Shown here one piece after another: positions 27,723 through 36,649 of a stretch of 64,000 nt of DNA; position 1 is the stretch's first letter; every line of letters begins with the position of its first letter. The DNA is taken from positions 19,179 to 83,178 of the forward strand of contig CAYJMC010000004.1 in assembly GCA_964371335.1 (NCBI GenBank), written 5' to 3'. The notes beneath the pieces are model-generated. The model saw only the letters and a list, made by a program, of their open reading frames with translations. It made no database searches and was not told the origin of the DNA. The position numbers were made by a program, and so were the translations under genes. The DNA comes from an uncultured Anaerolineaceae bacterium (GTDB lineage: Bacteria > Chloroflexota > Anaerolineae > Anaerolineales > UBA11579).

Positions 27723-28169
27723 ATGGCTAATATAACTAGATGGGAACCCTTCCGCGAACTGATGGAGATGCGTCGAGATTGGGATCGTGTGTTCGACGAT
27801 AATTTCTTCCGACCCTTATGGTCGTCCGAAAACGGACAGCGCACTCCGCTGGTTGACGTCTACCAGACGGCGGACGAAGTTCACGTGAAGGCTGCCATGC
27901 CTGGCGTCAAAGCTGAGGATGTGGACATCCAGGTGAATGGCGACATGCTCACTATTCGTGCCGAAATGAAGCATGAAGAAGAACACAAGGATGCCAGCTA
28001 CATGGTACGCGAACGGCGCTATCACTCTTACGCCCGCTCGCTGTCTCTGCCGGTCCCGGTGAAAGCCGACAAGGCTGAAGCCGAGGTGAAAGACGGCATC
28101 CTGCACGTTACTTTGCCGAAGGCGGAGGAGGCCAAGCCGAAGGTAATCACCGTCAAGGCTTCGAAGTAG
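27723..28169 (+). CDS. Hsp20/alpha-crystallin small heat-shock protein
   Basis: WEPFREL, PLVDVYQ, MPGV, DGILHVTLPK. Confidence 0.95.
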   Translation: MANITRWEPFRELMEMRRDWDRVFDDNFFRPLWSSENGQRTPLVDVYQTADEVHVKAAMPGVKAEDVDIQVNGDMLTIRAEMKHEEEHKDASYMVRERRYHSYARSLSLPVPVKADKAEAEVKDGILHVTLPKAEEAKPKVITVKASK

Positions 28170-28187
28170 CCTCCCGCCATCCCTTTG

Positions 28188-28219
28188 CAAGAGCCCGCCT
28201 ATGCGGGCTCTTGATTTTT
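28188..28219. terminator. Terminator between convergent genes
   Basis: CAAGAGCCCGC-CTAT-GCGGGCTCTTG then ATTTTT. Confidence 0.8.
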
Positions 28220-28565
28220 AACCGTCCTTATTTCTTGACTTCATCTCTTCGTGAAGCGCTCGCAAATAATGCCAATCGTAGATCCCATATTTGTGTCCAT
28301 CCTCCCATTCGAGATTAATCGCATAATTGCCCACCGCCTCGATATTTTGAAGCCTTGAAGCTGCCGCGCTCATCAGCGGGATGATGAACATGGTCGGATC
28401 CGGTTCCGGCTTCATGTTTTCATGGCCGCCGCGGCACTGGGCGCAGGGGCAGGCATTCCGCAGTAGATCAAACGGAAACGCGCTCTTCTCCCCGTCGTTC
28501 CAATCCACGTAAAGCCGTGCTCCTTTACGATTGGCAGTAATGCTTGTTGGTCGAATTTCGCTCAT
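28218..28565 (-). CDS. DUF971/GBBH-N-like metal-binding protein
   Basis: LRNACPCAQC, VGNYAI, WEDGH, GIYDW. Confidence 0.85.
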   Translation of the reverse strand: MSEIRPTSITANRKGARLYVDWNDGEKSAFPFDLLRNACPCAQCRGGHENMKPEPDPTMFIIPLMSAAASRLQNIEAVGNYAINLEWEDGHKYGIYDWHYLRALHEEMKSRNKDG

Positions 28566-28585
28566 TCCCGTTCCTTAATATTTCT

Positions 28586-28636
28586 ATCCTTGCGAAGGTT
28601 GTACTTGCGGCATTTCAAGGTAAGCCTTCGCAAGTT
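28586..28636. repeat. REP-doublet-like palindromic element, copy 3
   Basis: ATCCTTGCGAAGGTTG-spacer-AGCCTTCGCAAGTT. Its reversed spacer resembles that of copy 2. Confidence 0.8.
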
Positions 28637-28643
28637 TTTATCA

Positions 28644-29132
28644 TTATGGATTGGCGACCACTGATAGATAGTCCGCCGCTGCCCAGCCGGCGCGGCTTTC
28701 GTCCACTGGAGTGACCAGGTACCACCAGGTTAGTCCATCGGCCTCCACCGGACCGTCGCGTACCTCGAAGACCTCGGCGTCGTAGCCCAGGAACTGCACA
28801 TCATTACTCAGTCCAGGGCCGCTGCGGATGTTGAGACCCACGCCTCCGGTGCCCGTGATCTGCACAAAACTGCCGATGCCCATCTCGCCCGATTGCAGCG
28901 GCACAAAAGTCGGGGTCATTGTCGAGGTTGGTACCTGGGTCGCGGTCGGCGGCTGCGGCGTATTCGACGGACCTGGTATCCAAGTAAGAGCCGCCTGCGG
29001 TGCTTCGCTGGCGCCAGCCGGCAGATACCAAAACAAGGCAAAGGCAGCCGCTCCTGTAAGAAGAATGCCCAATCCAATTGCAGAAAGCACAACTCCGCGA
29101 GTGAACAAAGTCCGTAGGGCTTCCCAATTCAT
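28644..29132 (-). CDS. Membrane-anchored SH3b-domain protein
   Basis: N-terminal TM helix, P/T linker, GLNIRSGPG..WW..GWAAADYL. Confidence 0.85.
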   Translation of the reverse strand: MNWEALRTLFTRGVVLSAIGLGILLTGAAAFALFWYLPAGASEAPQAALTWIPGPSNTPQPPTATQVPTSTMTPTFVPLQSGEMGIGSFVQITGTGGVGLNIRSGPGLSNDVQFLGYDAEVFEVRDGPVEADGLTWWYLVTPVDESRAGWAAADYLSVVANP

Positions 29133-29162
29133 ATCCGTTAAGCATACCCCAGCCCATTAAAC

Positions 29163-29295
29163 CATTGCGAGCCAAGGAAAGCTTTGCTTTCCGCAGTTGC
29201 GAGGAGGCCGAAGGCCGACGAAGCAACCTCCACGGCGTGGCAATCCCCTAGGTCCAGCTTGAGGATTGCTTCGGGCGCGATGCACCCTCGCGATA
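29163..29295. repeat. Composite palindromic repeat element
   Basis: CATTGCGAG...GAGGAGGCCGAAGGCCGACGAAGCAA...GTGGCAATCC...GGATTGCTTCG...CTCGCGATA. 29184-29226 matches recG 34532-34574 in reverse. Confidence 0.85.
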
Positions 29296-29300
29296 GTTTA

Positions 29301-29349
29301 AATCTCCAATCTCTAATCCCAAATAATTAATAACAAATAACCATTGCCA
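29301..29349 (+). repeat. Heptamer tandem array
   Basis: AATCTCC AATCTCT AATCCCA AATAATT AATAACA AATAACC ATTGCCA. Confidence 0.7.
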
Positions 29350-29377
29350 GTTTCCCTCTCACGGTACAATCCCTTCG

Positions 29378-30421
29378 ATGTCCCCCACCAAAGCCGCCAA
29401 AAAGCATCTGCTCAACAAGCGGTATCAACTCGAGAACTACGTCGAGAAGGGCGGCATGGCCACTGTCTACCGCGGCCGCGACCTGATGCTGGAGCGCGAT
29501 GTAGCCATCAAAGTCCTGCGCGAGGATTATTCGCGCGACCCCGCCTTCCGCGAACGTTTCCGCCAGGAAGCTAAGGCCGCCGCCAATCTCTCGCATAGCA
29601 ACATTGTCACGGTTCACGACTTCGGTTTCGATGAGGATCACCTCTTCATCGTCATGGAGTACGTACCCGGCACCGACCTCAACACGTTGATCAAGCAAAA
29701 AAGCCGCTATTCGCTGGAAGAAGGCATTCCGCTGGTAATCCAGGCATGCAAAGGTCTGGGCTATGCCCACCGCGCGGGTCTGGTACATTGCGATATTAAG
29801 CCGCACAATTTCCTTGTGACGCCTGATAAACGCCTCAAGGTAACCGATTTCGGCATTGCCCGCGCCTTGGCTTCGATCCATCCCGATGAAGAGGCCGATG
29901 TCGTCTGGGGATCCCCGCAATATTTCGCTCCCGAGCAGGCCGCTGGCGGCGCGCCTTCCCCCGCGTCGGACGTGTACTCATTGGGTGTCATCATGTACCA
30001 GATGTTCACCGGCCAGTTGCCATTCACTTCGAAGAGCGCCGCTGACCTGGCCCAGGAACATCGTTACAAGGCCGTCAAACCTCCCATCGAACTGAATCCG
30101 GAAATCCCACCGGCTCTCAACGAGATCATGCTCAAGGTGCTTTCCAAGGAACCCTCCGCCCGCTACCGCACTGCTGACCAGCTAGGTCGAGTGCTGCTGA
30201 CTTTTGCCGCCCCTGCCGAGGTTGCCGAAGCCGAGGCTTACAGCAAACCGGCCGACAAAGCGCGCCGCACCGGTCCACAGGACAAAGCCGCCGGTGAAGA
30301 GACTGTGATCGAAACCGACTGGCTGGCTGTTGGTTTGGGCCTGCTTGCCGCGCTCTTAGTTGGCGGCCTGTTGCCTTTTTGGATGTGGGTGTATCTCATT
30401 TTTAATCCTCCGCTTCGTTGA
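29378..30421 (+). CDS. PknB-like Ser/Thr kinase with C-terminal TM helix, no PASTA domains
   Basis: GGMATVY, VAIKVL, HCDIKPHN, TDFGIAR, YFAPEQ. Confidence 0.93.
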   Translation: MSPTKAAKKHLLNKRYQLENYVEKGGMATVYRGRDLMLERDVAIKVLREDYSRDPAFRERFRQEAKAAANLSHSNIVTVHDFGFDEDHLFIVMEYVPGTDLNTLIKQKSRYSLEEGIPLVIQACKGLGYAHRAGLVHCDIKPHNFLVTPDKRLKVTDFGIARALASIHPDEEADVVWGSPQYFAPEQAAGGAPSPASDVYSLGVIMYQMFTGQLPFTSKSAADLAQEHRYKAVKPPIELNPEIPPALNEIMLKVLSKEPSARYRTADQLGRVLLTFAAPAEVAEAEAYSKPADKARRTGPQDKAAGEETVIETDWLAVGLGLLAALLVGGLLPFWMWVYLIFNPPLR

Positions 30422-30448
30422 ATTCTTCCCCTCAGTTATAATTTTGCA

Positions 30449-31129
30449 ATGGCTCCCAAGCCGCTGATCGCTCCATCGATTCTGAGCGCCGATTTCGCCC
30501 GCCTGGGTGAGCAGATCGCCGAAGCCGAACGGGCCGGCGCCGATTGGATTCATATCGACGTGATGGACGGACATTTCGTGCCGCCGATCACCATGGGGCA
30601 AGTCGTGGTCGAAGCCTGTCGCCGGGTCACCGAACTCCCGCTGGACGTGCATCTGATGGTCGAGAATCCCGACACGAGGCTGCAATCCTTTGCCGATGCT
30701 GGCGCGGATCATATCCACGTGCACATCGAGGCCAGTCCTGACATCGAAAAGAGCCTACAAACTATCCGCGGCCTGGGTTGCAAGGCCGGGTTGGCCATCA
30801 ATCCAGAGACTCCGCCTGCGGCGGCCCTGCCACATCTAAAGGCTGCCGACATCGTCTTGGTTATGAGCGTGCATCCCGGTTATTCCGGGCAGGATTTCAT
30901 CCCGGAGGTATTACCGAAGGTGGCTGAATTCAGCCGCGCAATCAAGGCCAAAGGGCTTGAAACCCTCATCCAGCTCGACGGCGGTGTGGACGCGGAAAGC
31001 TTGCCCGCCGCACTCGAGGCTGGCGGCCAGGTTTTTGTGGCGGCCAGCGCGGTTTACAAGCATCCGCAAGGAGTGGCCGCGGGCATCCAGGCGCTACGCT
31101 CAGCCTCGCTCGCAGCTCTCAAAAATTGA
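30449..31129 (+). CDS. rpe: Ribulose-phosphate 3-epimerase
   Basis: APSILSADF, HIDVMDGHFVP, DVHLM, DGGV. Confidence 0.96.
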   Translation: MAPKPLIAPSILSADFARLGEQIAEAERAGADWIHIDVMDGHFVPPITMGQVVVEACRRVTELPLDVHLMVENPDTRLQSFADAGADHIHVHIEASPDIEKSLQTIRGLGCKAGLAINPETPPAAALPHLKAADIVLVMSVHPGYSGQDFIPEVLPKVAEFSRAIKAKGLETLIQLDGGVDAESLPAALEAGGQVFVAASAVYKHPQGVAAGIQALRSASLAALKN

Positions 31130-31139
31130 TCGAGGAATA

Positions 31140-31496
31140 ATGACAACTAATAACGTTCCCCGTGGCAGCATCCATATTGCCCCGCGCGCCATCGCTGCTA
31201 TCGCGTACCAAGCCACGGTGGAATCTTATGGCGTGGTTGGTTTGGCATCCAAGAATGTATTCGATGGGCTTAGCAATTTCATTGTCAAAGACCCCGCGCA
31301 CGGGATCGAAGTCCGTTACGAAGAAGAATCCATCCTCATTGATCTGTATGTCGTTGTCGAATACGGCACCAACATCAAAGCGGTTGCCGACAGTGTTGCC
31401 AGCACGGTGCGCTTTCACGTGGAAAAAGCCCTGGGCGTCCCCATCCAAGAAGTCAATGTGCACGTCCAGGGGCTGCGAGTGAACTCCACAGAATAA
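31140..31496 (+). CDS. Asp23/Gls24 family protein
   Basis: ESYGVVGL, IDLYVVVEYG, VNVHVQG. Start 31140 after GAGGA, upstream of DAK2. Confidence 0.92.
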   Translation: MTTNNVPRGSIHIAPRAIAAIAYQATVESYGVVGLASKNVFDGLSNFIVKDPAHGIEVRYEEESILIDLYVVVEYGTNIKAVADSVASTVRFHVEKALGVPIQEVNVHVQGLRVNSTE

Positions 31497-31502
31497 AAAT
31501 CA

Positions 31503-33200
31503 ATGTTGGATCAATCGATGAAAACCGAATCTCCTCCAGCTCGTCTACGGGTCGCCGTATTGCAGCAATACCCGGTGAACGGGAAGGCGGTTAAGAATCT
31601 GGCCGAGGCGGCTTACGCCTGGCTGGAAGCCAACAAGCAAACAGTCAATGCGCTGAATGTCTTTCCCGTCCCAGACGGCGACACGGGTACCAACATGGTG
31701 CTCACGATGAAGTCGGCGATCGATGAACTTAACAAAATTCCCGAGAGCAAAGCAGGAGAAATGCTGGCCGCCCTCGCACAGGGCGCGTTGATGGGCGCCC
31801 GAGGTAATTCCGGCGTCATCCTCTCGCAGCTTTGGCGCGGCTTTGCCCGTTCGGTGGATGGCAAGGATTCCCTGAGTTCGCAAGACCTGGCGCAAGCTTT
31901 TATCGCCGCCCGCGATACAGCCTACAAAGGCGTTGTTCGTCCGGTGGAAGGCACCATCCTCACCGTTGCCAAAGACATGGCCGCAGCCGCCGAAGCCGCG
32001 GCCAGTGAAGGCGCCGACCCCATTCGACTTCTGCGCCGTGTGATGCAGGCCGCTAAGGACTCCGTCCAGCGGACGCCGGAGTTGCTGCCCATATTGAAGC
32101 AAGCCGGGGTAGTTGATTCCGGCGGCAAAGGGCTTAGCCTTCTGATGGAAGGTATGCTGCGCTGGGTGGAAGGCCAGCAACTCCACACCGCTGAGACCAT
32201 CGCGCCACCCCTCGCGGCTATGAAACTGGAGACCTCCCTGGAATCTGTCGAAGAGGGCCAGGACTACGAAGTGGTGGTGGATTTCCGTCCCCATCAAACA
32301 CTAGACCTGCCGCGCTTCTACAGCGACCTGGAAAAGATAGGCACCTCCATCCAGGTCGGTGAAGGGCAAGACATATATCGCATGCATATCCATGTCCCTG
32401 CCGACAAACGGAACGAGCCTATCGATTACATCGAATCCATCGGTACTTGGACAAACGTGAAGATGGAAAACCTGATGTCTCAGATGGACGAAATCAGGAG
32501 CAAGGCCGGCGGACCGCCGCTCAAATTGGCAACAGTGGCTCCGGGCCAGATTGCCGTGGTCGCCGTCGCCTCGGGCTCCGGAATTGCCCGCCACTTCGGC
32601 GAGCTAGGCGCCGCCGCAATCGTCGAAGGCGGCCAGACTATGAATCCCAGCACTGCGGACCTTTTGGCCGCGTTTGAAAATCTGCCCACCGATAAAATCA
32701 TCATCCTCCCCAACAACAAGAACATTCTCATGGCCGCCAACTCGGCGGCCGAGCTCACCGCCAAGAAAGCCATCGTCATCCCAAGCACCAGCATCCCCGA
32801 AGGGATGGCCGCCATGCTGCGCCTCAAGCCCCTGGGCGAGTTGGACGCGATGGCCAAAGACATGAAAGACGCGCTATCCGGCGTGCAGACTGGCGAAATC
32901 ACTACCGCCACTCGCGATGTAGAGATCGATGGCGTCAAGGTCAAGGTGGGGCAAATTATCGGCTTGCACAATGACAAACTGGTGATCGCTGCGGACGATG
33001 TAGAGAAGGCCTGCTTGCAATTACTCAAACAGATGAACGCCAAAGATTATGAAGCCATTACCCTCTTTTATGGCGAAGACCTCCACGCGGAACAAGCCTC
33101 AGCGATTGCCGAGTCCATTCGCAAAGCCTATCCCAAAAAAGAAGTGGATGTCCACGAAGGCGGGCAGCCCCATTACCCATTCATCCTGTCCGTCGAATAG
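31503..33200 (+). CDS. DAK2-domain fatty acid kinase catalytic subunit (FakA/YloV-like)
   Basis: NALNVFPVPDGDTGTNM, GARGNSGVIL, GGQTMNPS, GGQPHY. Confidence 0.93.
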   Translation: MLDQSMKTESPPARLRVAVLQQYPVNGKAVKNLAEAAYAWLEANKQTVNALNVFPVPDGDTGTNMVLTMKSAIDELNKIPESKAGEMLAALAQGALMGARGNSGVILSQLWRGFARSVDGKDSLSSQDLAQAFIAARDTAYKGVVRPVEGTILTVAKDMAAAAEAAASEGADPIRLLRRVMQAAKDSVQRTPELLPILKQAGVVDSGGKGLSLLMEGMLRWVEGQQLHTAETIAPPLAAMKLETSLESVEEGQDYEVVVDFRPHQTLDLPRFYSDLEKIGTSIQVGEGQDIYRMHIHVPADKRNEPIDYIESIGTWTNVKMENLMSQMDEIRSKAGGPPLKLATVAPGQIAVVAVASGSGIARHFGELGAAAIVEGGQTMNPSTADLLAAFENLPTDKIIILPNNKNILMAANSAAELTAKKAIVIPSTSIPEGMAAMLRLKPLGELDAMAKDMKDALSGVQTGEITTATRDVEIDGVKVKVGQIIGLHNDKLVIAADDVEKACLQLLKQMNAKDYEAITLFYGEDLHAEQASAIAESIRKAYPKKEVDVHEGGQPHYPFILSVE

Positions 33201-33209
33201 CCCCCATTT

Positions 33210-34046
33210 ATGCCCTCAGTTTGCATAGTAAGCGATTGCACCGCGCTGTTCCCGAATCCCGTCTTTAAAGGGCGCAGCCAGGTTCAACTGTTGCCTGCCG
33301 CTTGGCAGGACGATCAGCCATCAGTGGAGCGATTGAAGGCTGCCGATTTCCCTGTGTCGCTCAAGGGTGCCGAAGCCCCTGCCCTGGCGACTCCCAGCCA
33401 GGCGGAATTCGAAGACCTCTTCCGCTCTGCCGGCGGAAAATACGATGGCGTGCTGGCCATTTTGCACTCCTCCAAATTCAGCCCTGCTGCCGAACGGGCG
33501 CAAGAGGCCGCTCAGGTGCTGAATGGCACCGTGCCTGTGCGCGTCATTGACAGTCACACAGTTTCGCTTGGATTGGGCCTCATCGTGCAAGCCGCAGCTG
33601 CTGCCGCCGAAGGCGGCATGCCACTACCCGAACTGGACCTCTACGCCCGCAGCCTGATCCCTAAGAATTATGGCATGCTCTGCATTCCAGGTCTGACCTA
33701 TTTGCAGCGCGCGGGCCAGGTGAATCCCTCGCAAGCAATAGTGGGCGAATACCTGGATATATTGCAGGTCTTCACTCTCGATAATGGAGAGTTGGTGCCC
33801 ACTCAAAAAGCCCGCAACGCCCGCCACTTGGTGGATATCCTGGTCGAATTCCTCTCTGAGTTCTTTAACTTGGAGCACATCGCCATCATGCAAGGGGCGC
33901 CCAGCTTCGAGCAGGAGACCCGCGGCCTGCGCGAGCGCCTGAATGAAGAACGCCCGGGAATCCCTATCAGCGAGCAGATTATCAACGCCCCTTTCGCCAG
34001 TCTCATCGGCCCCCACAGCCTGGGAGTGTTCGCTCTGGCAAATTAA
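33210..34046 (+). CDS. DegV family fatty-acid-binding protein (divergent)
   Basis: IVSDCTA, TPS, HSSKFS, VIDSHTVSLGLG, LTYL. Follows DAK2. Confidence 0.85.
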   Translation: MPSVCIVSDCTALFPNPVFKGRSQVQLLPAAWQDDQPSVERLKAADFPVSLKGAEAPALATPSQAEFEDLFRSAGGKYDGVLAILHSSKFSPAAERAQEAAQVLNGTVPVRVIDSHTVSLGLGLIVQAAAAAAEGGMPLPELDLYARSLIPKNYGMLCIPGLTYLQRAGQVNPSQAIVGEYLDILQVFTLDNGELVPTQKARNARHLVDILVEFLSEFFNLEHIAIMQGAPSFEQETRGLRERLNEERPGIPISEQIINAPFASLIGPHSLGVFALAN

Positions 34047-34052
34047 AAACCG

Positions 34053-34113
34053 ACCACGGAGACACTGAGTCACGAAGTTTGTTTCTCTATTTAATTCTCC
34101 GTGCCTCCGTGGT
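34053..34113. repeat. Small inverted-repeat element with 9-nt periodicity
   Basis: ACCACGGAGACACTGAGTCACGAAG ... CTCCGTGCCTCCGTGGT. Confidence 0.7.
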
Positions 34114-34150
34114 GAATTATTTGCGAACCCACCTTTGCTACAATAGATCA

Positions 34151-36649
34151 ATGAAGCCTTCGCTCAGCAAGCTTCAGAAGTTCTTTCGGCTCGAAGCGCA
34201 ACGCAGTTACGATAATCGCGCCGTGTTTGGAGGATTGCAGCGCAGCCTGCAAAACTGGGACGCGGAGGCTCGCGCCGATGGCCTGGGGGAAGAGCTGGTG
34301 AATAGTATCACCGCCGAATTGCGAGACTACGAAAAGCTATCTCCTAAAGAACGCGGAAAGACACTGGTCGACATCTGGTTGCGCGTCGAACGCGAAACCG
34401 GGATGCATACCGATGGGACTAGGCCAAAGAGGAAAACCGCAACGAAAAAACCAACTAAAGCCTCGAGTCCAAAGCGAACTGCAAAAACACCCTCATCCCC
34501 ATCCCCCAAGACCAACAAAAAAGAAGGGGGATTGCTTCGTCGGCCTTCGGCCTCCTCGCAACTGCGGAAAGCAAGCTTTCCTGGACCCGCCGCGCTGGAG
34601 GCGCCTACCACGGTTCTAAATGGCGTGGGACCAGTGAACGCGGAGCGTCTGGAGAAGCTGGGCATCTTCACGCTGAGGGACATGCTCTATCATTTCCCAC
34701 GCCGCTATGACGACTACAGCCAGCAGGTGCGCATCCGCAACCTGCGCTACGGCATGGAAGTGACTGTCATCGGCGAAGTCAAACGAATTTCCAAACGTCA
34801 GGGCAAGGGTCGTCGCTTTATGACCGAAGCCATCGTGCAAGACGAGTCAGGTGCGTTACGCGCGAATTGGTTCAACCAACCCTGGATGATCCGTAACCTG
34901 GACATTGGTAACCAGATTGTGCTCTCCGGCAAAGTAGACCAATACCTGGGACGCCTGACGATGAACAATCCCGAATGGGAATTGCTTGACAAGGAGCAGC
35001 TGCACACAAACCGCATCGTACCGGTATATCCATTGACGGCGGATCTCGGCCAGCGCTGGCTGCGCGGGCTGATGAACCGGGTAGTCACCCATTGGGCGCC
35101 GCGGATCCCGGACCCGTTGCCAACTGCAGTCATCGATTCTGCCGGATTAGAGCCACTTTCCGAAGCGTTGCTGCAAGCGCACTTTCCTGATTCTCAAGAA
35201 GAGATTCAGGCAGCCCGCCAACGGTTGGCATTCGATGAATTGTTCCTGCTGCAATTGGCAGTGCTGCAGCAAAAGCAAATCTGGCAAGGCCAGGCCGCCC
35301 AACGCTTCGATGCGCCGCAAGACTGGCTGGAGGCTCAAATTGCCCGACTACCCTACCAACTGACCGGCGCGCAGAGGCGAGCACTGGCTGATTTACTGAA
35401 GGATCTAGACTCCGGACGGCCAATGAACCGACTGCTGCAAGGCGATGTGGGTTCCGGCAAAACTGTGGTGGCGGCTCTTTGCATGGCCGCGGTGACGCGC
35501 GCCGGCGCTCAGGCAGCCCTGATGGTGCCCACCAGCATCCTCGCCGAGCAGCACTATGCAAGCCTGCAGGAATTGCTGGTTAGCGAAAGGAATATGCGGC
35601 CAGCCGAGTTGCGCCTGATCGTCGGTTCGACACCTGAAGCGGAGAAAGAAGAGATCCGCGCTGGTTTGAAAGACGGCGCCATCAAAGTCGTGGTCGGAAC
35701 GCACACACTCATCGAAGATCCCGTCCTGTTTTCGCAATTGGAGCTGGTCGTTATCGATGAGCAACACCGCTTCGGCGTTGGGCAGCGCGCCGCGTTGCGC
35801 GCCAAGGGCACCAATCCCCATTTGCTGGTGATGACTGCCACACCCATACCGCGCTCGCTCTCCCTCACCATCTATGGCGACCTGGAACTAAGTGTCATCG
35901 ACGAGATGCCGCCAGGTCGTCAGGAAGTAAGCACTCATCTCTTGCTGCCCCGCGAACGCGATCGGGCATACAAGTTGATTCGCAAAGAAGTCCAGGCGGG
36001 CCGACAGGCTTTCATAATTTATCCCCTTATCGAAGGGAGCGAAAATAGCGAAACCGGGGCCGCCGTCGATGAACAAAAACGCTTGAAAAAAGAAGTCTTC
36101 CCCGACCTCAAGGTAGAGCTTCTGCACGGGCGCCTGGGCGCCGAGGGGAAAGACAAGGCCATGGCCGCTTTCCGGGACGGCAAAGCTCAGATTATGGTCT
36201 CCACCACCGTAATCGAAGTGGGCGTTGACATCCCCAGCGCTACGGTCATGCTCATCGAGGGCGCCAACCGCTTCGGCTTGGCGCAATTGCACCAGTTGCG
36301 CGGCCGGGTAGGCCGCGGCGCCGAGAAATCCTATTGCATCCTCATCCCCGACCACGAGGATGCCGCTGAAAACAGGCGTCTTCAGGCCTTGCTGGAAACG
36401 AACGACGGCTTTATCCTTGCGGAGAAGGACCTGGAGCAACGCGGCCCAGGCCAATTCCTGGGCCGCCAGCAATCCGGCTTCCTCGATTTCCGCCTGGCTT
36501 CGCTCAGCGACGCCCGCCTCATCGACAAAGCCCGCCGCCTTGCCGAACAGTTGCTGGCAGTGGACCCGGCATTGAGTCAGCCAGAACACCATGCACTAGC
36601 CGCCGCTGTGAAAAACTACCTCCGCGACGGCAAGGGAGATCTCAGCTAA
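34151..36649 (+). CDS. recG: ATP-dependent DNA helicase RecG with N-terminal extension
   Basis: QGDVGSGKT, DEQHRFG, MTATPIPR, QLRGRVGRG. Start 34151 follows TGcTACAAT. Confidence 0.96.
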   Translation: MKPSLSKLQKFFRLEAQRSYDNRAVFGGLQRSLQNWDAEARADGLGEELVNSITAELRDYEKLSPKERGKTLVDIWLRVERETGMHTDGTRPKRKTATKKPTKASSPKRTAKTPSSPSPKTNKKEGGLLRRPSASSQLRKASFPGPAALEAPTTVLNGVGPVNAERLEKLGIFTLRDMLYHFPRRYDDYSQQVRIRNLRYGMEVTVIGEVKRISKRQGKGRRFMTEAIVQDESGALRANWFNQPWMIRNLDIGNQIVLSGKVDQYLGRLTMNNPEWELLDKEQLHTNRIVPVYPLTADLGQRWLRGLMNRVVTHWAPRIPDPLPTAVIDSAGLEPLSEALLQAHFPDSQEEIQAARQRLAFDELFLLQLAVLQQKQIWQGQAAQRFDAPQDWLEAQIARLPYQLTGAQRRALADLLKDLDSGRPMNRLLQGDVGSGKTVVAALCMAAVTRAGAQAALMVPTSILAEQHYASLQELLVSERNMRPAELRLIVGSTPEAEKEEIRAGLKDGAIKVVVGTHTLIEDPVLFSQLELVVIDEQHRFGVGQRAALRAKGTNPHLLVMTATPIPRSLSLTIYGDLELSVIDEMPPGRQEVSTHLLLPRERDRAYKLIRKEVQAGRQAFIIYPLIEGSENSETGAAVDEQKRLKKEVFPDLKVELLHGRLGAEGKDKAMAAFRDGKAQIMVSTTVIEVGVDIPSATVMLIEGANRFGLAQLHQLRGRVGRGAEKSYCILIPDHEDAAENRRLQALLETNDGFILAEKDLEQRGPGQFLGRQQSGFLDFRLASLSDARLIDKARRLAEQLLAVDPALSQPEHHALAAAVKNYLRDGKGDLS
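34526..34583. repeat. Palindromic repeat copy in frame within recG
   Basis: 43-nt exact reverse-complement match to 29184-29226. Encodes GLLRRPSASSQLRKASF. Confidence 0.9.

What the first reader, a model, noticed from the sequence alone, without database searches (positions are those of the whole stretch)
34526..34583. Intergenic palindromic repeat present in frame inside recG
Seen: TTGCTTCGTCGGCCTTCGGCCTCCTCGCAACTGCGGAAAGCAA (34532-34574) is the exact reverse complement of intergenic 29184-29226. Similarity continues through GCTTTCC with a 1-nt indel. It holds two mini-hairpins (GGCC-TTC-GGCC and GGAAAGC/GCTTTCC) and is translated as GLLRRPSASSQLRKASF in the K/P/S-rich linker before the RecG core. 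Known: Rickettsia palindromic elements insert in frame into housekeeping genes. Inference: a similar repeat-to-peptide process is recent or active in this lineage.
Basis: seen in the sequence. Interest (0 to 1): 0.7.

Follow-up and report, generated by a model that had tools for sequence, protein, structure and literature searches.

The report
Hairpin repeat translated inside recG
A 58-base two-hairpin repeat that is scattered through this uncultured Anaerolineales genome really does sit in frame in the floppy linker of the DNA-repair helicase RecG, one of at least six such in-gene copies, which makes it a new example of a kind of event already known from Rickettsia.

Summary
Window 34532-34574 is the exact reverse complement of 29184-29226. 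Both are copies of a two-hairpin repeat with about 40 full-length copies in this 2.4-Mb Anaerolineales MAG.

- **It is translated.** RecG is one ORF, and 21 orthologues share its layout of N-terminal helical domain, disordered linker and wedge/helicase core. The repeat encodes roughly residues 126-145, in a segment with pLDDT below 50.
- **The site is empty elsewhere.** One congener (G006) carries the same insertion. The other 22 of 24 orthologue loci carry a conserved RP+xEGEPAAL motif instead.
- **It is not an artefact.** Contigs from three independent metagenome studies reach into the repeat from both sides.
- **Other in-frame copies exist.** MutS, RecA, PepF and a PduO adenosyltransferase have in-frame copies with empty sites in relatives. 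GcvT probably does too. The scan had already found the mutS copy.
- **The recG insertion is old.** It predates about 21% nucleotide divergence. The repeat differs at only 3 of 56 bases, against 51 of 237 in its flanks.
- **Origin.** Sister subfamilies flank small GIY-YIG (Ssn-like) nuclease genes. The recG subtype never does.

Verdict: a tolerated passenger insertion, a new member of the RPE/REP-in-gene phenomenon, with some unexplained nucleotide conservation.

The parts
34526..34584 (+). In-frame copy of the two-hairpin repeat inside recG. It consists of a G-run plus 5' module GATTGCTTCGTC (34530-34541), hairpin 1 GGCC-TTC-GGCC (34542-34552), the conserved spacer TCCTCGCAACTGC (34553-34565), hairpin 2 GGAAAGC-AA-GCTTTCC (34566-34581) and TGG. 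It is translated as GGLLRRPSASSQLRKASFPG.
   Evidence: (nhmmer E=1.7e-18)
29172..29231 (-). Intergenic copy of the same repeat, in opposite orientation. It lies between a divergently oriented SH3-domain ORF and a Ser/Thr kinase gene. An orthologous copy stands about 5 kb from recG in G009.
   Evidence: E=1.7e-19; G009:C2:41065-41116
29159..29297 (.). Cluster of related modules around the intergenic copy: AAACCATTGCGAG (29159-29171), CCACGGCGTGGCAATCCCC (29230-29248) and GGATTGCTTCGGGCGCGATGCACCCTCGCGAT (29263-29294).
   Evidence: Read.
34151..36649 (+). recG coding sequence, with ATG at 34151 (832 aa plus stop). Pfam finds RecG_wedge, DEAD, Helicase_C and RecG_dom3_C.
34151..34405 (+). N-terminal four-helix domain of RecG (residues 1-85). 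It has no Pfam match and is fused to RecG in relatives across the genus, family and order.
34406..34585 (+). K/P/S/T-rich linker (residues 86-145), predicted disordered: pLDDT below 50 and no secondary structure. The repeat fills its C-terminal third.

Best explanation
The stretch is one copy of a lineage-specific, roughly 55-65-nt two-hairpin dispersed repeat. It was inserted into the disordered linker between the N-terminal helical domain and the wedge domain of RecG. It replaced the ancestral C-terminal part of that linker, including a conserved RP+xEGEPAAL motif. It has since been carried and translated as a passenger peptide.

Shown:
- The insertion is real, in frame, absent from most orthologues and located in a predicted disordered segment.
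- The family has other in-frame copies in linkers, loops and terminal tails of conserved proteins.
- The family consensus has no stop codon in any of the six frames.

Inferred:
- The copies inside genes are survivors of a selection filter. Only insertions that keep the frame and fall in flexible, hydrophilic-tolerant sites persist.
- The repeat is a derived subtype of a hairpin superfamily of 146 elements in this genome. It has the tag CGCAG instead of CGTCA, plus an extra hairpin. Other subtypes of that superfamily flank small GIY-YIG (Ssn-like) nuclease genes in the arrangement repeat-gene-repeat.

How the repeat spreads, and which enzyme (if any) acts on the recG subtype, is not shown.
For: - **Identity and family:** (93 hits at E<0.01; 40 full-length copies; 146 superfamily elements; tags TGAC 36, CTGCG 31, AGAC 30, TGGTT 12).
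- **Translation context:** there is one continuous ORF. The N-terminal domain and the core share one frame in 21 full-length orthologues.
- **Empty site:** 22 of 24 RecG loci read lack the repeat. G006 has it at the same place and in the same frame, with the same derived CCTGG end.
- **Disorder:** residues 86-145 have pLDDT below 50.
- **Independent DNA support:** contigs of runs from three other studies run from unique recG sequence into the repeat on both sides.
- **Other in-frame copies:**
  - MutS: 2 of 20 loci filled.
  - PduO adenosyltransferase: 1 of 15 filled, a clean 66-nt insertion.
  - PepF N-terminal tail: 2 of 5 filled.
  - RecA N-terminal tail: 1 of 5 orthologues filled.
  - GcvT: split matches in 3 relatives.
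- **Six open frames:** only 68 of 5000 shuffles of the consensus share this property.
- **Hairpins kept by compensatory change:** hairpin 2 has 8 different perfectly complementary 7-nt arm pairs. Mean folding energies are beyond all 20 shuffles.
- **Link to GIY-YIG genes:** 10 of 32 small GIY-YIG loci in G000 and five congeners are flanked on both sides by superfamily motifs.
Against: - The recG subtype (tag CTCGCAACTGCG) lies within 250 nt of none of the 32 GIY-YIG loci.
- The published SRM search motif is not enriched in this genome (12 hits against 13-19 in shuffles) and does not match the recG copy.
- The repeat is far better conserved between G000 and G006 than its flanks: 3 of 56 differences against 51 of 237, binomial P about 9e-4, with the region chosen after looking. 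A neutral passenger would not be expected to show this unless gene conversion homogenises the copies.
- The recG copy on its own does not fold better than shuffles (z = -0.01).
- No target-site duplication or terminal inverted repeat was seen.
- There is no expression or peptide evidence.
Confidence: 0.8

Rival explanations
1. The in-gene copy is kept for what its DNA does, not as a passenger. On this reading it is a recognition site for an Ssn-like single-strand nuclease or another hairpin-binding protein, and it delimits or biases homologous replacement of recombination and repair genes. This would resemble what NTS and DUS repeats do in Neisseria.
For: - The repeat is conserved at 53 of 56 bases between G000 and G006, while the flanks differ at 21.5%.
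- The G000 copy is still identical to the family consensus.
- A switch in relatedness lies at the 3' edge of the repeat. In the linker, G000 groups with G006 at 28 informative sites and with G009 at 8. From column 541 to 1440 it groups with G009 at 156 sites and with G006 at 18.
- Four of the seven hosts act in recombination or repair: RecG, MutS, RecA and an MrfA-like helicase that holds only a partial copy. GcvT rests on split matches alone.
- Chenal et al. 2025 (PMC11893778, sections 6, 7, 10, 12 and 17 read) show that NTS/Ssn pairs modulate transformation. They also note that DUS repeats are enriched in genome-maintenance genes.
Against: - This rests on one breakpoint and a count made after looking.
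- The G009 linker is not homologous in the repeat region, so part of the G006 signal there is trivial.
- Gene conversion among about 40 copies could give the same conservation.
- The recG subtype is not found next to any GIY-YIG gene.
- No further in-gene copies were found in other congeners with one peptide query. The two candidates turned out to be a 5' UTR and an intergenic site.
Confidence: 0.13
2. The family is an ordinary REP/REPIN family moved by a RAYT (Y1 tyrosine transposase), not related to GIY-YIG nucleases.
For: The genome has 6 matches to Pfam Y1_Tnp. Several of them are flanked by short palindromes.
Against: The palindromes next to the Y1 genes are other families: GTAG-headed GTAGGGACAGG.., ACCTTGCGAAGGTT and AGACCCTAAAGGTTT. 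None is the recG-type repeat. The recG-type repeat has no GTAG head.
Confidence: 0.08
3. The repeat is not translated. On this reading RecG starts at or after the repeat (for example at the TTG at 34532), and the upstream domain is a separate or decaying gene.
For: E. coli-type RecG begins about where the wedge domain begins here. A TTG lies inside the repeat.
Against: No stop separates the N-terminal domain from the core in G000 or in the 21 full-length orthologues aligned, including members of another genus and another family. The domain keeps 13 invariant residues in its first 60 positions.
Confidence: 0.04
4. Assembly artefact: a chimeric join at a repeated 55-mer.
For: The genome is a MAG of 127 contigs. 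Short-word contigs break inside the repeat.
Against: - The same join is present in the separately assembled G006.
- Orthologues without the repeat have the same domain order.
- Contigs from three other studies cover both junctions.
Confidence: 0.01

Closest known systems
Rickettsia palindromic elements (RPE; Ogata et al. 2000 and 2002, as described in PMC10969869 and PMC3733652; passages read)
   Same: Both are dispersed palindromic repeats found in intergenic DNA and in frame inside unrelated housekeeping genes. Orthologues lack the insert. The encoded peptides sit where the protein fold tolerates them.
   Different: The repeat here is about 58 nt, against roughly 100-150 bp for RPEs. The host is a free-living sediment or groundwater Chloroflexota, not an obligate intracellular alphaproteobacterium. 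The structure is a composite of two hairpins. All six frames are open, and two of them are used.
CGTC-tagged REPs, also called NTS/SRM hairpins, recognised by Ssn GIY-YIG single-strand nucleases (Di Nocera et al. 2013, PMC3733652; Chenal et al. 2025, PMC11893778)
   Same: Read in reverse complement, the sister subtype is CGTC-ATTGCGAGG-[hairpin]-CGAAGCAAT-CCCC, a CGTC head followed by a hairpin. These repeats flank small genes for single-domain GIY-YIG proteins of about 99 aa on both sides in inverted orientation. Di Nocera et al. assign RPE-4 and RPE-6 to the CGTC class.
   Different: The recG subtype has CGCAG in place of CGTCA and an added hairpin. The published SRM pattern does not match it. 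No GIY-YIG gene is flanked by this subtype. Membership of these proteins in cd10448 could not be tested.
REP/REPIN elements with RAYT transposases
   Same: Both are short palindromes in many copies. The stems are kept by compensatory change. The elements are clustered and nested, like BIMEs.
   Different: There is no GTAG head, and no Y1 transposase gene is flanked by this family.
MITEs that make in-frame fusions (ERIC, BOX, Nezha; review PMC10969869)
   Same: Both are small non-autonomous repeats that can lie inside ORFs.
   Different: No terminal inverted repeats or target-site duplications were seen here. The element is also shorter than typical MITEs (70-300 bp).

Membership tests
RPE-like in-frame palindromic repeat (the phenomenon) | Dispersed repeat family with many copies in the genome | tested here: met
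   93 nhmmer hits and 40 full-length copies. The superfamily has 146 elements.
RPE-like in-frame palindromic repeat (the phenomenon) | The copy lies inside an intact ORF, in frame, and orthologues lack it | tested here: met
   RecG: 2 of 24 loci filled and 22 empty. The same holds for MutS, the adenosyltransferase, PepF and RecA.
RPE-like in-frame palindromic repeat (the phenomenon) | The insert sits where the protein fold tolerates it | tested here: met
   The repeat peptide lies within residues 86-145, which have pLDDT below 50 and no secondary structure. This is a prediction only.
RPE-like in-frame palindromic repeat (the phenomenon) | The insert is actually translated | not testable with these tools
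   No RNA run is listed as holding the stretch, and there are no proteomics data.
RPE families of Rickettsia (sequence membership) | Sequence similarity to RPE-1 to RPE-10, with a length of about 100-150 bp | not tested
   No RPE sequences were compared. The length here is 55-65 nt.
SRM/NTS hairpins of Ssn nucleases | Matches the published degenerate SRM pattern | tested here: not met
   The recG copy does not match. The genome has 12 hits, against 13-19 in shuffles.
SRM/NTS hairpins of Ssn nucleases | The repeats flank a small single-domain GIY-YIG gene on both sides | tested here: inconclusive
   This is met for sister subtypes, in 10 of 32 loci. It is met in 0 of 32 loci for the recG subtype.
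SRM/NTS hairpins of Ssn nucleases | The protein belongs to cd10448 and cuts the hairpin as single-stranded DNA | not testable with these tools
   Pfam GIY-YIG scores 54-63 bits. The PDB match is 1ZG2 (UPF0213) at E=9e-5, and there is no NCBIfam match.
REP/REPIN-RAYT | GTAG head, and a RAYT gene flanked by the repeat | tested here: not met
   The six Y1_Tnp matches are flanked by other palindromes.
MITE | Terminal inverted repeats and a target-site duplication | tested here: not met
   Comparison of filled and empty sites in the adenosyltransferase, MutS and RecA shows neither.

The most novel reading that the evidence does not exclude
The copies inside genes are not neutral passengers. They would be hairpin sites kept at the nucleotide level, by selection or by directed conversion, and concentrated in recombination and repair genes (recG, mutS, recA and an mrfA-like helicase). 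There they would mark the ends of homologous-replacement tracts. That would make them a Chloroflexota counterpart of the NTS/Ssn and DUS systems of Neisseria, acting from within coding sequence.
Probability: 0.12. Interest if true: 0.75.

Novelty: new member of a known kind. Interest (0 to 1): 0.5.

Why it matters
Protein-coding palindromic repeats were long treated as a peculiarity of Rickettsia. This case shows the same process in a free-living, uncultured Chloroflexota lineage. There are at least six host proteins, and the insertion ages are datable, from copies shared between species to copies seen in one genome only.

Through sister subtypes, the case also ties such in-gene repeats to the hairpins that flank Ssn-type GIY-YIG nuclease genes. 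That suggests a testable source for them.

For annotation, it explains odd basic or serine-rich segments in otherwise conserved proteins of Anaerolineales MAGs. It also warns that such segments are repeat-derived rather than lineage-specific functional motifs.

Tried and rejected
- **Rfam:** a scan of window 28000-36000 at E up to 1 gave no family for either copy. It gave only weak, sub-threshold hits elsewhere.
- **Single-copy folding:** folding the recG copy alone as DNA gave z = -0.01 against shuffles, so this one copy shows no special stability.
- **RNAalifold:** on the MAFFT alignment it recovered only the outer TTGC/GCAA pairs and a 3-bp part of hairpin 1, because the hairpins differ in length. 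I therefore folded the hairpin segments copy by copy.
- **RAYT link:** not found.
- **Published SRM pattern:** no enrichment and no match.
- **NCBIfam on three small GIY-YIG proteins:** no family.
- **Expression:** no RNA holder was listed for the stretch.
- **Bridging contigs:** no single contig bridged the whole repeat with 31 letters on both sides. Only the two junctions are covered separately.
- **More in-gene copies in congeners:** a search of 23 genomes with the 24-aa MutS-frame peptide gave two candidates in long open frames. On reading them, one was a copy upstream of the start codon and the other was intergenic on the antisense strand of a real gene.
- **Exact 19-mer scan of 185,579 species genomes:** it found 27 stretches. 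Of these, 16 lie in two Chloroflexota/Anaerolineales MAGs, 4 in other Anaerolineales or Anaerolineaceae MAGs and 7 in unrelated taxa. My own estimate of the chance expectation is about 4, so the 7 are probably chance.
- **Literature:** six searches found no paper describing in-frame hairpin repeats in Anaerolineae or Chloroflexota.
- **Not seen:** the supplementary data of Chenal et al. (genome lists for SRM counts) were not opened. They could show whether Chloroflexota were already listed.
Full report
**1. The observation**

Window 34532-34574 on the + strand is identical to the reverse complement of 29184-29226 at 43 of 43 bases. The window holds exactly these two matches at up to 3 mismatches, and none of 100 dinucleotide shuffles gave any. 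blastn extends the similarity to 52 columns with one gap: the loop of the second hairpin is AA in recG and AAA in the intergenic copy. In the frame of the long ORF 34079-36649 the stretch reads GGLLRRPSASSQLRKASFPG.

**2. The gene and whether the stretch is translated**

- The ORF is RecG. Pfam finds RecG_wedge from residue 181 of the stop-to-stop frame, plus DEAD, Helicase_C and RecG_dom3_C.
- Upstream of the wedge there are an ATG at 34151 (MKPSLSKLQKFF...), about 85 residues with no Pfam match, and a K/P/S/T-rich stretch.
- A search of 40 relatives found RecG in all of them. I read 30 loci. In 24 my anchor motif found the RecG frame. In the other six (L024-L026, L028-L030) it did not, and they were not examined further.
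- In all 23 full-length cases the N-terminal domain, a variable linker and the core are in one frame. L014 is cut by a contig end.
- An alignment of G000 with 21 full-length orthologues has 13 invariant residues in the first 60 positions of the N-terminal domain. I left out G015, which is unpublished, and the cut L014. The domain is therefore a real, conserved part of the protein, and the linker has to be translated to join it to the core.
- AlphaFold2 on that alignment gave mean pLDDT 74.5. It predicts four helices for residues 3-83, then residues 86-145 with pLDDT below 50 and no secondary structure, then the wedge.
- The repeat codes for roughly residues 126-145, the C-terminal third of the disordered linker.

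**3. The empty site**

- Of the 24 RecG loci, only G000 and G006 (L003) have the repeat peptide. G006 reads GLFLRPSASSQLRKASFPGPAAL.
- The other 22 have a linker that ends in a conserved motif of the type RRAKIEGEPAAL or RPRVEGEPAAL directly before APTTVL. These include G009, the closest relative, and G015.
- At the DNA level, G000 and G006 carry the repeat at the same position, in the same orientation and frame. Both have the same departure from the family consensus at the 3' end: CCTGG instead of CCTTG. This argues for one insertion event.
- G009 has about 75 non-homologous bases in its place. These encode ...KRTSVSFRPHAEGESAAL.
- The event was therefore an insertion with replacement of the ancestral segment, not a clean insertion.

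**4. Not an artefact**

G006 is a separate assembly with the same join. Logan contigs of four runs were laid on 34150-35050. One run may be the source sample; the other three are from different studies.

- Contigs run from unique upstream recG sequence to 34557-34559, that is 26-33 bases into the repeat.
- In three of the four runs (X1, X5, X6) a contig also runs from 34545-34553 on into unique downstream sequence. In X8 the right junction is not shown.
- These contigs carry 0-4 differences.
- No single contig bridges the repeat, as expected for 31-mer graphs at a repeat.
- Summed depth rises from about 8 to 175-1490 over 34522-34583, which reflects the many other copies in those samples.

**5. 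The family**

- A profile built from 16 blastn hits finds 93 matches at E<0.01 in the 2.43-Mb genome, which has 127 contigs and is 87% complete. Forty matches are full length.
- The consensus is (G)GGATTGCTTCGTC-[hairpin 1]-(C)TCCTCGCAACTGCG-GAAAGC-AA(A)-GCTTTC-CTTG.
- Hairpin 1 varies in sequence and length, from GGCC/GGCC up to GGCGTTGC/GCAACGC, but stays self-complementary.
- Hairpin 2 occurs as 8 different perfectly complementary 7-nt arm pairs.
- Mean folding energies of the two segments are -3.7 and -4.6 kcal/mol, against -1.1 and -2.1 for shuffles. None of 20 shuffle sets reached the observed values.
- Its 12-mers are among the most frequent in the genome.
- A wider pattern (5' module, hairpin, CTCGCAA) finds 146 elements. 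They split by the bases that follow: TGAC 36, CTGCG 31 (the recG type), AGAC 30, TGGTT 12, others 37.
- The full recG-type element is abundant only in G000, G006 and G009, each with 23 matches listed and at most 22 candidates scored per genome. A few copies occur in G003, G004, G015, G020 and G022. Elsewhere in the order only the 5' module matches.
- An exact 19-mer scan of one genome per species found it mainly in two Chloroflexota/Anaerolineales MAGs. That scan also names the lineage.

**6. Other in-frame copies in G000**

I screened all hits for open frames extending at least 40-50 codons on both sides with positive codon-usage scores. I then compared the candidates with relatives.

| Host protein | In-frame copy | Filled / empty in relatives |
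|---|---|---|
| MutS | Residues 391-410, AKESLLSAVARRPKVDEAIP | Filled in G000 and G009; absent in 18 of 20 loci |
| PduO-type cobalamin adenosyltransferase | Clean 66-nt (22-codon) insertion in a loop | Filled in 1 of 15 orthologues |
| PepF | In a K-rich N-terminal tail whose MAKK start is kept in all five species | Filled in G000 and G009; empty in G006, G022 and G004 |
| RecA | In the N-terminal tail | Filled in G000 only; empty in G006, G004, G022 and G003 (G006: MARKVKLTEIKVAPEAPPSNGHNPEQD) |
| GcvT | Between its two Pfam domains | Matches in G006, G022 and G003 skip residues about 300-325; alignments not inspected |
| MrfA-like DEAD/HNH helicase | Partial copy inside a 45-residue insert | Insert absent in G022 and G004 |

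- In MutS, the G009 copy has a 39-nt longer hairpin 1 and is still in frame.
- G004 carries only an outer palindrome, GGAGTCGAGGCTTTAGCCGGT...ACCGGCTAAAGCCTCGACTCC, into which the repeat is nested. The same outer halves flank the PepF copy.
- Three further ORFs without Pfam matches also hold superfamily elements.
- The earlier scan note e1-3571625 had reported the mutS and recA copies. I reached them independently before reading it.

**7. Frames**

- The consensus has no stop in any of the six frames. Only 68 of 5000 shuffles share this property.
- Lengths of 32 delimited copies are spread evenly over the three classes modulo 3 (9, 10 and 13). The family as a whole is therefore not shaped for coding.
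- The five verified full-length in-gene copies use only two frames: GLLRRPSASSQLRKASFP (RecG, PepF) and KESLLSAVARRPKADEAI (MutS, the adenosyltransferase, RecA).
- These are the two frames that are hydrophilic and free of cysteine. That fits a filter by tolerance, but five events are few.

**8. Age and conservation**

- G009 is the closest relative overall. Its RecG core is 0.91-0.98 identical at the DNA level in columns 541-1440, MutS is 94% identical and PepF 95%.
- The repeat-bearing linker is nevertheless shared with G006, whose recG differs at 21.8% of bases.
- Informative sites switch at the repeat. In the linker (columns 271-387) G000 groups with G006 at 28 sites and with G009 at 8. From column 493, directly after the repeat, the sites favour G009, and in columns 541-1440 the count is 156 against 18.
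- G000 and G006 differ in the linker about as much as elsewhere. The simplest reading is that the insertion predates the split of the three species and that G009 later acquired a different linker by recombination, with one end at the position of the repeat. This is inference.
- Within the repeat, G000 and G006 differ at 3 of 56 bases, against 51 of 237 in the 120-base flanks (binomial P about 9e-4, with the region chosen after looking).
- The G000 copy is still identical to the consensus. Either gene conversion among copies or selection on the DNA motif is at work. I cannot tell which.

**9. Where the family comes from**

- No Y1 (RAYT-type) transposase gene is flanked by it. The six Y1_Tnp matches sit beside other palindromes, some of them GTAG-headed.
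- Following the lead of scan note e1-2332020, I looked at GIY-YIG genes. G000 has seven small ones plus UvrC.
- Four of the seven (C87:295-513, C18:257-475, C18:1725-1943, C104:222-440) are flanked on both sides, in inverted orientation, by superfamily elements of the TGAC/AGAC subtypes.
- Over G000 and five congeners, 10 of 32 small GIY-YIG loci are flanked on both sides and one on one side. None has the recG-type tag within 250 nt.
- Read in reverse complement, those flanking elements are CGTC-ATTGCGAGG-[hairpin]-CGAAGCAAT-CCCC. This is a CGTC-headed hairpin like the NTS of Neisseria (CGTCATTCCCGCG...CGGGAATCYRG), which Chenal et al. 2025 showed to be the site of the single-strand nuclease SsnA (PMC11893778; sections 6, 7, 10, 12 and 17 read).
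- Di Nocera et al. 2013 (PMC3733652, passages read) place dRS3 of Neisseria and RPE-4 and RPE-6 of Rickettsia in the same CGTC class. They also report such repeats inside coding regions of several bacteria.
- The resemblance has limits. The published SRM pattern is not enriched here and does not match the recG copy. The proteins match only Pfam GIY-YIG and PDB 1ZG2 (UPF0213). Their CDD class could not be tested.
- I therefore file the recG repeat as a derived subtype of a hairpin superfamily that is associated with Ssn-like genes, not as a proven SRM.

**10. Comparison and verdict**

- The event works like an RPE insertion. The features of the phenomenon that could be tested are met; translation itself could not be tested.
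- It is not a sequence member of any described RPE, REP or MITE family, as far as tested.
- In-frame palindromic repeats are known (reviews PMC10969869 and PMC3733652, passages read). Six full-text searches found nothing on them in Anaerolineae or Chloroflexota.
- Three things remain unexplained: the nucleotide conservation of the in-gene copy, the relatedness switch at its edge, and the share of recombination and repair genes among hosts (four of seven).

Counts that include the unpublished genome G015: the 22 empty RecG loci, the 18 MutS loci without the repeat and the 14 empty adenosyltransferase loci each contain one G015 row.

Noticed in passing
window 34151-34405: RecG here and throughout the order carries an extra N-terminal domain of about 85 residues, predicted as four helices, with no Pfam match. 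It is joined to the wedge by a linker of very variable length. In some orders the open frame reaches 930-956 aa.
   Followed up: partly
window 34151-36649 compared with L002 (G009) and L003 (G006): recG is a mosaic among three congeners. The N-terminal domain is star-like (20/27/21 informative sites). The linker is G006-like. Columns 541-1440 and 2071-2605 are G009-like, and columns 1441-2070 are star-like again. One switch lies at the 3' edge of the repeat.
   Followed up: partly
G000:C3:47090-47161 (mutS), L037 (G009), L038 (G004): There are nested palindromes in mutS. An outer 21-nt-arm palindrome is present alone in G004. The recG-type repeat is nested in its left arm in G000 and G009. The G009 copy has a 39-nt longer inner hairpin that keeps the frame. 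The same outer halves flank the in-frame copy in pepF (G000:C44:12363-12421).
   Followed up: partly
G000 contigs C3, C4, C16, C17, C44, C60: Four of the seven hosts of in-frame copies act in recombination or repair: RecG, MutS, RecA and an MrfA-like DEAD/HNH helicase (partial copy only). The other three are PepF, a PduO adenosyltransferase and GcvT (split matches only). The count was made after looking and has no proper background.
   Followed up: partly
G004:C11:93698-95467; G006:C73:9592-11117; G022:C27:20893-22271: A small GIY-YIG gene, or fragments of one, lies immediately downstream of recA in three congeners. The genus also has a second RecA paralogue, 77-79% identical.
   Followed up: no
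G000:C53:1505-1981 and C21:5010-5597: Y1 (RAYT-like) transposase genes are flanked by GTAG-headed palindromes. In C53 such a palindrome is itself in frame inside the transposase ORF (VGAGLRPAQSEREGLRPSPT).
   Followed up: no
window 29133-29377: The intergenic region between a divergently oriented SH3-domain ORF and a Ser/Thr kinase gene holds at least four superfamily modules in a row, a BIME-like cluster.
   Followed up: no
window 35376-35603 (-): There is an Rfam hit to Ysr141 at E=2.6e-8 but only 40 bits against a gathering score of 196. It lies inside the recG coding sequence and is probably spurious.
   Followed up: no
RecG and RecA filled and empty sites: At both sites the empty allele has a G-rich stretch resembling the repeat's GGGGATTGC end: GGGGGGATTCC in G009 recG, and the reverse complement of GCACCCCCT in G006 recA. 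This may indicate microhomology or a target preference, but there are only two cases.
   Followed up: no
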